64,000 bases of DNA from Octopus vulgaris (lineage: Eukaryota): positions 15,996,001 to 16,060,000 of the forward strand of contig OX597821.1 in assembly GCA_951406725.2 (NCBI GenBank), read 5' to 3'. Under the pieces are notes generated by a model, which saw nothing but the letters and a program-made list of their open reading frames with translations, did not search any database and had not been told where the DNA came from. How positions within the stretch are numbered: position 1 is the first letter of the stretch; each line of letters opens with the position of its first letter. Below are positions 46,630 to 50,910 of this stretch, piece by piece. A program made the translations under genes and the position numbers.

Positions 46630-48100
46630 TATTACTTAGTATATATATATATACATATATATATACATATATATATATATATATATATGTATATATATAT
46701 ATGTATATATATATATGTACATATATATATATATGTATATATATATATGTACATATATATATATATATGTATATATATATATGTACATATATATATATGT
46801 AAATATATATATATGTACATATATATATATATATATAGATATATATATATATATGTAGATATATATATACATATATATATGTACATATATATATATATAT
46901 GTACATATGTATATATATATATGTATATATATATATATATATATATATATATATATGTATATATATATGTATATATATATATATATATATATATATATAT
47001 ATATATATATATATATATATATATATATATATATATATATATATATATATATATATATATATATATATATATATATATATATATATATATATATATATAT
47101 ATATATATATATATATATATATATATATATATATATATATATATATATATATATATATATATATATATATATATATATATATATATATATATATATATGT
47201 ATATATATATATATATATATATATGTATATATATATATATATATATATATATATATATATATATATATATATATATATATATATATATATATATATATAT
47301 ATATATATATATATATATATATATATATATATATATATATATATATATATGTATATATATATATGTATATATATATGTATATATATATATGTATATATAT
47401 ATATGTATATATATATATGTATATATATATATGTATATATATATATATATATATATATATATATATATATATATGTATATATATATGTATATATATATAT
47501 ATGTATATATATATGTGTATGTATATATATGTATATATATATATATGTATATATATATGTATATATATATGTGTATATATATATGTATATATATATATAT
47601 GTATATATATATATATATGTATATATATATATATATATATATATGTATATATATGTGTATATATATATATATATATATATATATATATATGTATATATGT
47701 GTATGTATATATATATGTATATATATATGTATATATATATATATATATATATATATGTATATGTATATGTATATATATGTATATATATATATATATATAT
47801 ATGTATATATATATATGTATATATATATATATATATATATATATATATATATATATATATATATATATATATATATATATATATATATATGTATATATAT
47901 ATATGTATATATATATATATATATATATATATATATATATATATATATATATATATATATATATATATATATATATATATATATATATATATATATGTAT
48001 ATATATATATATATATATATATATGTATATATATATGTATATATATATATATATGTATATATATATATATATGTATATATATGTATATATATATATATGT
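46630..48100. repeat. ~1.5-kb (TA)n array with G interruptions
   Basis: Direct inspection. Confidence 0.95.
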
Positions 48101-49182
48101 ATTGATTGATTGATTGATTGATTCTAGTTTCAGCTTATGAGCTGTGGCCATGCTGGGGCACCGCCATTTGGTGTTGCTACTTGGTTTCACTTCATGGAGG
48201 CTTTCTAGCAACTGCTATTTGGTGCATGAGAGAGTTCGATGCAGCTGCCCTCATCTGCCCCTCCTGCCGTGAAGTTGGTTCATCTGGGACACCTGACAGG
48301 AAGAGATCCAGCTCCATTTTAAAGACATCTGTATCCACCCCATGCAGGTCTCTCAGGTTCTTCGGGAGGATATTGAAGAGCTGTGGGCCTCGGAAGCCCA
48401 GGCTATCACAGAATCTTGTCCTACATCTTGATGGCAAGTTTGGAGTCCTAGGCACCACCCAGTGGCGCCCAGTTCTGGCATTTGCGTAACTCTCGATGCC
48501 AAAGTTCAGGACACTTCCCTCCAGGATCTTCCAGATGTATATTATGGCATATCTTTCCCGCCTACGCTCCAGGGAATATAATTTTAATCTCTTGAGTCTT
48601 TCCCAGTAGCTTACATTCTGCATAGAGGCTATCATCTTCGTGTAGATTCGTTGGATCGCCTCCAGTTCTGTGATCAACTTGACACTGGATGGTGACCATA
48701 GCTGAGAGCAATAGTCAAAGTGACTTAGGACAAGTGTCTTCCAGAGGACCATCATGGTTTCTTGTTCTCTTGTTCTAAAGGTTCTAAGAATCCATCCAGC
48801 CAGCCGTCTGCATTTCAATGTCAGTTTAGCAACATGTACATGAAAGGTCGCGTCATCACTCATGTGAATACCCAGGTCACGCACTGATTGTGCCTCTGGG
48901 ATTGCAATCCCTCCGAGTCCAGTGTATTCCTTGGGTATTGCATTCAGTTTTGCATGCTGATAGTATAAAGCTTGAAACTTTTCAGCATTGAACTGCATGC
49001 TATTCTTTTCAGCCCACTTGTATATTTCGTCCAGCTCATATTGCAGGTGCTGAGTGTCTTCAGGGTTCTGTATTGCCTGTGAAACTTTTGTATCATCTGC
49101 ATAACTTGTGATCGTGGCTCTCCGCGTGGCTGAGGGCATGTCTGAGAGGGCCATTATGAACAGTAGTGGTCCCAAAACAGTG
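48101..49182 (-). mobile_element. LINE copy C (second CR1-group subfamily), 5'-truncated, (AATC)n tail
   Basis: ORF 48192..49175: [25 protein letters not shown]; clearly homologous to but diverged from A/B. Confidence 0.93.
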
Positions 49183-49933
49183 TATGTATGTATGTATGTA
49201 TATATATATATGTATGTATATATATATATATATATATATATATATATATACGTATATATATATGTGTATATATATATGTATATATATATGTATATATATA
49301 TGTGTATATATATATATATGTATATATATATGTGTATATATATATATGTTTATATATGTGTATATATATATGTATATATATGTGTATATATATATGTGTA
49401 TATATATATGTATATATATATGTGTATATATATATATGTATATATATATGTGTATATATATATATATGTATATATATATGTGTATATATATATATGTATA
49501 TATATATGTGTATATATATATGTATATATATATGTGTATATATATATGTGTATATATATGTGTGTATAGATATGTGTATATATATATGTGTATATATATG
49601 TGTATATATATGTGTATATATATATGTGTATATATATATGTGTATATATATATGTATATATATATGAGTATATATATATGTATATATATGTGTATATATA
49701 TATGTATATATATATGTGTATATATATATGTTTATATATATATGTATATATATATATGTATGTATATATATATGTATATATATATATGTATATATATATA
49801 TATGTGTATATATATATATATGTGTGTATATATATATGTATATATATGTGTGTATATATATATGTATATATATATGTGTATATATATATGTATATATATA
49901 TGTGTATATATATATGTGTATATATATATATGT
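49183..49933. repeat. (TA)n/TATGTG satellite between LINE copies C and D
   Basis: Direct inspection. Confidence 0.95.
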
Positions 49934-50382
49934 ATATGCCATAATATACATCTGGAAGATCCTGGAGGGAAGTGTCCTGAACTTTGGCATCGAGAGTTAC
50001 GCAAATGCCAGAACTGGGCGCCACTGCGTGGTGCCTAGGACTCCAAACTTGCCATCAAGATGTAGGACAAGATTCTGTGATAGCCTGGGCTTCCGATGCC
50101 CACAGCTCTTCAATATCCTCCCGAAGAACCTGAGAGACCTGCATGGGGTGGATACAGATGTCTTTAAAATGGAGCTGGATCTCTTCCTGTCAGGTGTCCC
50201 AGATGAACCAACTTCACGGCAGGAGGGGCAGATGAGGGCAGCTGCATCGAACTCTCTCATGCACCAAATAGCAGTTGCTAGAAAGCCTCCATGAAGTGAA
50301 ACCAAGTAGCAACACCAAATGGCGGTGCCCCAGCATGGCCACAGCTCATAAGCTGAAACTAGAATCAATCAATCAATCAATC
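49934..50382 (+). mobile_element. LINE copy D, 3' ~450 bp, near-identical inverted duplicate of the end of copy C
   Basis: [12 protein letters not shown]...VARKPP plus 3' hairpins and (AATC)n; only two substitutions seen versus C. Confidence 0.93.
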
Positions 50383-50910
50383 ATATATATATATATACAT
50401 ATATATATATATATATATATATATATATACATATATATATATACATTAATATATACATATATATATATATACATATATATATATATATATATATATATAT
50501 ATATATATATATATATATATATATATATATACATATATATATACATATATATACATATATATATACATATATATATATATATATATACATATATATACGT
50601 ATATATATACATATATATATATATATATATATATATATATATATATATATATATATATATATATATATATATATATATATATATATATATATATATATAT
50701 ATATATATATATATATATATATATATATATATATATATATATATATATATATATATATATATATATATATATATATATATATATATATATATATATATAT
50801 ATGTATATATATATATATATATATATATATATATATATATATATACATATATATATGTATATATATATACATATGTATATATATATACATATATACATAT
50901 ATATATATAT
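50383..50910. repeat. (TA)n array with C interruptions
   Basis: Direct inspection. Confidence 0.95.

What the first reader, a model, noticed from the sequence alone, without database searches (positions are those of the whole stretch)
46630..50910. LINE cluster 2: independent repeat of the pattern, head-to-head near-identical copies in ~2.8 kb of TA arrays
Seen: a different subfamily ((AATC)n tail) is present as C(-) 48101-49182 and D(+) 49934-50382. Both have complete 3' ends and differ at only two positions that I can find. They are separated and flanked by 0.5-1.5 kb TA arrays. D starts at an ATATG microhomology inside the LINE ORF. The arrays downstream of both tails are mostly C-interrupted in the LINE sense, i.e. 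mirror images. Two such inverted duplications from two subfamilies in one 64-kb window suggest a recurring mechanism rather than chance (inference).
Basis: partly seen in the sequence, partly recalled or inferred. Interest (0 to 1): 0.7.

Follow-up and report, generated by a model that had tools for sequence, protein, structure and literature searches.

The report
Mirror LINE pair in TA repeats
Two broken copies of a young jumping gene sit back to back inside long TA repeats, the landing place this family uses across the genome; the shorter copy was likely made by a local fold-back copying of the longer one, but two separate insertions remain possible.

Summary
The structure is real: C(-) 48103-49182 and D(+) 49934-50382 differ at 2 of 429 sites plus 5 nt at the tail junction. 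They are 5'-truncated copies of a young APE-RT LINE (CR1-like, about 2,000 copies) that lands in (TA)n: 60 of 70 unselected copies versus 5.5% of random positions. Close neighbours are therefore common (12 pairs around 70 copies, all orientations, 5 mixing two families, none sisters). Yet both belong to a minor sublineage (2 of 59), and D alone of 39 copies has G-type array upstream and C-type downstream. Best reading: fold-back copy of C's 3' end (0.47); rivals: independent insertions (0.28), same-burst double insertion (0.18). Cluster 1's long pair is not a duplication; only a 338-nt palindrome there is. Reads gave no test. The scan holds no look-alike note, only a related one on other elements.

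The parts
46640..48102 (.). TA array 1, G-interrupted on +; downstream of C
48103..49182 (-). LINE copy C: 5'-truncated, 3' 1.06 kb of ORF2 (RT end, open frame) + 3' UTR + (AATC)5 tail; 8 private substitutions against its sublineage (7 in the 5' 630 nt, 1 in the part shared with D)
48096..48102 (.). 7-nt TSD-like word, first copy (repeated at 49183-49189)
   Evidence: short and low in complexity, so weak
48548..48552 (-). ATATG inside C's ORF: the point at which D begins
49183..49933 (.). TA array 2 (spacer), G-interrupted, 30 GTG units; upstream of both C and D
49934..50382 (+). LINE copy D: last 429 nt + (AATC)5 tail; starts at 5-nt microhomology; 1 near-private substitution (8 matches genome-wide)
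50320..50355 (+). 3' UTR stem-loops; the inner stem is shared with the second family
   Evidence: predicted; z -2.3 for this family, -0.6 for the other
50383..50910 (.). TA array 3, C-interrupted on +, no CAC units; the likely inverted copy of array 1's proximal part
4020..4357 (.). Cluster-1 fold-back palindrome (70 nt of LINE B tail + 100 nt compound array per arm, 1 mismatched pair), centred in (TA)n at about 4188

Best explanation
C is an ordinary 5'-truncated insertion of a young LINE family that lands in (TA)n arrays, and D plus the near part of array 3 is likely an inverted DNA-level copy of C's 3' end and array 1, made by a fold-back template switch. Shown: the family's TA target, C's normal anatomy (same array type on both sides, TSD-like word), shared sublineage, array switch at D. 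Inferred steps: a strand being synthesised through array 2 ended in ATATG, annealed to the CATAT inside C 1.4 kb back, copied C's last 429 nt, tail and some hundreds of nt of array 1, then returned to the original template inside TA repeats, where homology is everywhere; this would have happened soon after C inserted, and two substitutions, a 5-nt loss at the junction and slippage of run lengths came later.
For: Both carry two minor alleles found together in 2 of 59 position-sampled copies; 1 of 59 is within 2 nt of D. Across insertions with clean arrays on both sides: 35 same type, 3 C|G, 1 G|C, which is D (12 mixed of 51); the LINE itself has no bias (downstream 33 G, 32 C, 15 mixed). Array 3 resembles array 1's proximal 333 nt (12 interruptions, no GTG/CAC) and not array 2, which it abuts (90 G, 30 GTG); C's array ranks 1 of 53 to 3 of 39 for D, though 5 of 53 to 9 of 63 the other way. 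First run after the tail is 15 in both. Fold-back copies of LINE tail plus array exist in this window (4020-4357) and a sister head-to-head pair with 4 pair-only variants and the same junction exists on C20. Chance expectation of a head-to-head, same-sublineage, switched pair: 0.003 genome-wide for this sublineage (range 0.0001-0.2).
Against: No variant is unique to the pair; 11 dispersed copies are closer to each. C has 8 private changes and D shares none (likelihood ratio 0.3-0.6). Tail junctions differ by 5 nt, not a repeat-unit multiple, and each is a junction class seen in single copies (81 ATATA, 3 AATAC); C's extra letters are part of its TSD-like word, so D would have had to lose them. 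Interruption order is no more alike than chance (common subsequence 3 of 12, reached by 45% of null pairs; the C20 control scored 6, 2%). 5' microhomology with the array is normal for the family (11 of 40 junctions, C and D included, have 4 nt or more). None of 7 same-family close pairs around 70 unselected copies is a sister pair. The posterior runs from 0.01 to 0.95 with the prior; features were chosen after seeing the locus.
Confidence: 0.47

Rival explanations
1. C and D are two independent target-primed insertions, at different times, into one long TA array; (TA)n reads the same on both strands, so either orientation occurs, and D landed at an existing G|C switch or deleted DNA between two arrays.
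For: 60 of 70 copies end in TA arrays; 12 neighbour pairs within 2.5 kb around 70 copies, 7 same-direction and 5 opposite, 5 mixing two families, none sisters; different junctions, different 5' ends, no shared private change; G|C switches occur inside arrays (19 of 243 by a loose test, some only short end domains). About 0.9 head-to-head pairs within 2.3 kb are expected genome-wide even with uniform spacing.
Against: Needs two uncommon coincidences: same minor sublineage (2 of 59) and a switch exactly at D (3 of 38 other insertions are discordant, none in this direction).
Confidence: 0.28
2. C and D were both reverse-transcribed from the same active source in one germ-line burst, priming on opposite strands of the same array (double insertion).
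For: Explains shared sublineage, no shared private change and separate junctions at once. L1 insertions of two transcripts in opposite orientation are described (PMC11702581, section 7). A C5 tail-to-tail pair is identical over its last 680 nt, matched by no other panel copy, with different junctions.
Against: Does not explain the array switch at D. C has the same array type on both sides and a TSD-like word, so it looks like a complete single insertion rather than half of a joined break. C has more private changes per base than D (8/1061 against 1/431; not significant). The C5 pair may be gene conversion.
Confidence: 0.18
3. D and array 3 are an assembly artefact (a fold-back chimeric read or the other haplotype's copy joined inverted).
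For: No read or contig support obtained: raw runs laid 0 reads, repeats are skipped, no listed contig spans D's own allele.
Against: Two substitutions, a junction indel and different run lengths are not what a single-molecule chimera gives; the right flank is single-copy; those read calls were no test.
Confidence: 0.05

Closest known systems
CR1-group LINEs (CR1/L2); recently active CR1 families are listed for Octopus vulgaris (PMC13282606, passages: 13 families, 787 insertions); avian CR1 has only a weak site preference (PMC2612034, abstract)
   Same: APE endonuclease plus RT in one ORF, no poly(A), short-repeat tail, 3' stem-loop, heavy 5' truncation; RT motifs look CR1-type (recalled).
   Different: Strong (TA)n target (86% against 5.5%); ORF1 region with weak Myb/SANT-like and CCCH matches below cut-off, terms absent from the ORF1 survey PMC4120745 (passage search). 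Clade not placed on a tree.
Microsatellite-specific non-LTR elements (Togen on (TG)n, some HERO; Tx1 and R1 clades) (PMC4640811, passages)
   Same: Insertion into a simple repeat, with stacking of copies in one array.
   Different: That paper puts most target-specific families in early-branched, Tx1 and R1 groups; this family looks CR1-type and its preference is strong but not strict.
Microhomology-mediated fold-back / template-switch inverted insertions (PMC11724301, abstract; L1-linked fold-backs PMC11702581, passages and section 7)
   Same: Inverted local copy starting at a few bases of microhomology.
   Different: The local yeast events are mostly 5-34 bp; here about 0.45-0.8 kb with a 1.4-kb loop, germ-line, and the return junction would be hidden in TA repeats.
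TE dimers by repeated insertion at preferred sites (PMC5932611, passages); inverted Alu pair depletion (PMC3215922, abstract)
   Same: Neighbouring copies with distinct 5' truncations, as for most pairs surveyed here.
   Different: No visible shortage of inverted pairs in my small sample (5 of 12).
L1 twin-priming 5' inversion (recalled; mentioned in PMC11702581 section 7)
   Same: Opposite-orientation pieces of one element side by side.
   Different: Twin priming leaves one tail and non-overlapping pieces; C and D have two tails, overlap fully and are 751 nt apart.

Membership tests
Non-LTR retrotransposon, APE type | ORF2 with APE endonuclease and RT | tested here: met
   L093 open frame of 1039 aa: RVT_1 E 2.5e-30, Exo_endo_phos_2 E 5.8e-12; best PDB match human LINE-1 ORF2p
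Non-LTR retrotransposon, APE type | Fixed 3' end, variable 5' truncation | tested here: met
   100 copies of 36 nt to 5.9 kb sharing the 3' end
CR1 group | Short tandem-repeat tail rather than poly(A), 3' stem-loop | tested here: met
   (AATC)n tail; predicted stem-loops. That these mark CR1/L2 is recalled
CR1 group | RT falls within the CR1 clade on a tree with named references | not tested
Microsatellite-targeting LINE | 3' junction in the repeat far above background | tested here: met
   60 of 70 copies of 146 nt or more, 15 of 30 ultra-short copies, 5.5% of 36,000 control positions; second family 9 of 11 with an array of 33 nt or more elsewhere and here, a sample biased to array loci
Microsatellite-targeting LINE | Array existed before the insertion | tested here: met
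   Same interruption type on both sides in 35 of 39 clean cases
Microsatellite-targeting LINE | Endonuclease cuts (TA)n | not testable with these tools
   Needs a biochemical assay; survival bias is not excluded
Inverted duplication (C/D) | Copies are each other's closest relatives / share pair-only variants | tested here: not met
   0 pair-only variants; 11 closer copies; low power with 429 nt
Inverted duplication (C/D) | Same source lineage | tested here: met
   Two minor alleles shared; 2 of 59 unselected copies have both
Inverted duplication (C/D) | Flank copied with the element (same junction, mirrored array) | tested here: inconclusive
   Polarity, density and first run match; junction differs by 5 nt; order of runs at chance level
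Inverted duplication (C/D) | Read support and pre-duplication allele | not testable with these tools
   searches gave no test
Twin-priming 5' inversion | One tail, non-overlapping inverted pieces | tested here: not met
   Two tails, full overlap

The most novel reading that the evidence does not exclude
CR1-type LINEs in this genome target (TA)n arrays, a target not found described for this group in my searches, and those hairpin-prone arrays then repeatedly generate and homogenise inverted sister copies of the LINE end together with its array (C/D, the 4020-4357 palindrome, the C20 and C5 pairs): a recurring LINE-plus-microsatellite route to local inverted duplications, readable from the G/C polarity of the arrays.
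Probability: 0.3. Interest if true: 0.55.

Novelty: new variant of a known kind. Interest (0 to 1): 0.33.

Why it matters
The locus itself is two dead LINE fragments. What carries over is (1) a young CR1-like family with an intact ORF2 copy and a strong (TA)n preference, which explains stacked LINE clusters in this genome and offers an APE endonuclease whose target can be assayed; (2) a simple marker, the G or C polarity of interrupted TA arrays, that separates plain insertions from local inversions; (3) a caution for the scan: near-identical neighbours of a young, target-biased family are weak evidence of duplication.

Tried and rejected
Top-hit comparison first suggested clear independence; it was biased to C/D's own sublineage and was corrected with 100 position-sampled copies. 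A genome-wide count of close pairs could not be made; only the first 100 places of each pattern are listed, so pair rates rest on C1 to 144.5 Mb (tail), C1 to 171 Mb and C1-C5. Read tests: three raw runs laid 0 reads, contigs skip repeats and drop rare variants: no evidence either way. Array mirror tests have low power: the C20 control passed one and failed most alignments. 'Short copies are SINEs': rejected, their upstream DNA is unrelated flank. 'LINE makes C-interrupted arrays': rejected (33 G, 32 C). Twin priming: rejected. A/B as a duplication: rejected. Local hotspot: 200 kb around the window holds one 94% copy, no young pair and no TA-centred palindrome. Rfam: 96 matches, all TA-driven miRNA models far under their cut-offs. 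No tree was built: the 429-nt overlap has too few informative sites. Literature: six searches showed no paper on a (TA)n-targeting CR1-type LINE or on such pairs in cephalopods; subscription papers and Repbase entries are not covered, and supplements of PMC13282606 were not read.

Full report
Setting. The finding covers three TA arrays and two LINE pieces.

Observation. C(-) 48103-49182 and D(+) 49934-50382 match over 429 nt with two mismatches, and their tail junctions differ by 5 nt. On the + strand array 1 has 65 G and 9 C, array 2 has 90 G and 1 C, array 3 has 4 G and 16 C. D starts at ATATG, which also lies in C at 48548-48552. C has the same 7-nt word on both sides, TSD-like. The two copies are 75-77% like the cluster-1 family. 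The right flank is single-copy.

The element. An exact 27-nt tail motif occurs 2103 times (1011 +, 1092 -). I fetched the first 100 listed, all on C1, chosen by position, and 20 random 10-kb stretches. Seventy are 146 nt to 5.9 kb; 30 are only the last 36-65 nt. L093 has a 1039-aa open frame with APE and RT; the ORF1 region gives weak Myb/SANT-like and CCCH matches under cut-off. Short-repeat tail, predicted 3' stem-loop and RT motifs point to the CR1 group (recalled; not placed on a tree; homologues unnamed).

Target. A TA array follows the tail in 60 of 70 copies, and in 15 of 30 ultra-short ones, against 5.5% of 36,000 control positions. Interruption type is the same on both sides in 35 of 39 clean cases (12 further cases mixed), so arrays predate the insertions; downstream arrays are G-type in 33 and C-type in 32. 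Copies cluster: 11 of 99 gaps are under 50 kb against 3.3 expected. Around the 70 copies are 12 neighbour pairs within 2.5 kb: 7 tandem, 3 head-to-head, 2 tail-to-tail; 5 mix the two families; in all 7 same-family pairs other copies are closer. So adjacency and opposite orientation need no duplication.

Are C and D sisters? Among 28 other top-hit loci, 11 are 1 nt and 17 are 2 nt from both; C and D each carry their own change and share no pair-only variant. C's allele has 2 matches in the genome, D's has 8; the other holders are 3-36 nt from D. But top hits are biased. In the position sample both carry two minor alleles (14 of 59 and 3-4 of 59; both in 2 of 59), and only 1 of 59 is within 2 nt of D; one allele alone is on 318 of 1901 copies genome-wide. 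C has 7 private changes in its 5' 630 nt and 1 in the shared part (p 0.10).

The arrays. C has G-type on both sides (+ strand). D has G upstream and C downstream, the only such case among 39; three others are C|G. Array 3 matches array 1's proximal part in density and lack of GTG/CAC units, unlike array 2; the first run is 15 in both (3 of 95 copies start with that token, D included). Deeper order is at chance level, and alignment ranks are only mildly high. Switches inside arrays exist: none of 37 clean long arrays switches end to end, but a looser test marks 19 G|C of 243.

Do such duplications happen here? Yes. 4020-4357 is a palindrome with one mismatched pair, 70 nt of LINE B tail plus 100 nt of compound array per arm, the only TA-centred one among 3 palindromes in 1.5 Mb. 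A head-to-head pair on C20, found through a shared rare allele and so selected, differs at 18 of 4978 sites with 4 pair-only variants and the same junction. A tail-to-tail pair on C5, also selected by allele, is identical over its last 680 nt. The long cluster-1 pair is not one: 32 of 1082 differences, against 9-15 between B and 5 of 6 long dispersed copies. The 200 kb around the window shows no further case.

Weighing. For the fold-back copy against independence: sublineage about 10-25 fold, polarity 5-12 fold; against: no shared private change 0.3-0.6, junction about 0.3-0.6 (my estimate). The product is 4.5-72; with a prior of 5-20% for close head-to-head pairs the posterior is 0.19-0.95, with 1% it is 0.04-0.42. 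A same-burst double insertion takes the sublineage and junction facts but not the polarity. I give 0.47, 0.28, 0.18 and 0.05 for artefact. Reads gave no test.

Comparison and papers seen. PMC11702581 (passages, section 7): L1 insertions of two transcripts in opposite orientation, inversions and templated DNA at insertion sites, fold-backs. PMC11724301 (abstract): microhomology fold-back insertions in yeast. PMC4640811 (passages): most target-specific families are early-branched, Tx1 or R1; Togen targets (TG)n. PMC2612034 (abstract): weak CR1 site preference. PMC13282606, PMC8967140, PMC9115989 (passages): CR1 and RTE activity in cephalopods, no target-site statement in the passages shown. PMC5932611 (passages), PMC3215922 (abstract): TE dimers and inverted-pair depletion. 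PMC4120745, PMC3124438 (passages): nothing bearing directly. Six searches found no report of a (TA)n-targeting CR1-type LINE; Repbase and subscription papers are not covered.

Verdict. Real structure, known ingredients. Interest 0.33.

Noticed in passing
window 4020-4357: Near-perfect 338-nt palindrome of LINE B tail plus compound TA array: a clear fold-back duplication; A (2878-3969) and B (4297-6870) are not sisters.
   Followed up: partly
A 92-nt piece recurs at 1959-2050.
   Followed up: partly
L172/L173 (C20:30820784-30836955): Head-to-head near-full-length sister pair; 1 difference in the middle 3.7 kb, 17 in the outer parts, suggesting later conversion.
   Followed up: partly
L159/L160 (C5:118848736-118849432); similar spacing at C5:118900438-118901538: Tail-to-tail pair across pure TA, identical over the last 680 nt; a second such pair 52 kb away was listed but not fetched.
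   Followed up: partly
30 of L031-L130: Ultra-short insertions of 36-65 nt whose 5' ends pile up at the 3' UTR stem-loop; reverse transcription may often stall there.
   Followed up: partly
L086 3415-3491: 77-nt inverted piece at the 5' end of a copy, overlapping its start: a small 5' fold-back.
   Followed up: no
L161 (C1:46024866 and 46029365): Direct duplication of a 241-nt copy with its array (same 5' end, 4 differences), bracketing an unrelated copy.
   Followed up: partly
L093 3306-6425; L051: Intact ORF2 in a full-length copy; ORF1 region with weak Myb/SANT-like and CCCH zinc-finger matches; tandem repeats in the 5' UTR.
   Followed up: partly
L189, L197, L198, L199: Several inverted repeats of 160-580 nt at 90-98% from other repeat families within 100 kb of the window.
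   Followed up: no
runs X5-X8 (organism B): Contigs of a second species label match the LINE 3' end exactly in 31-35-nt pieces (X5), so the family is probably shared with a close relative.
   Followed up: no
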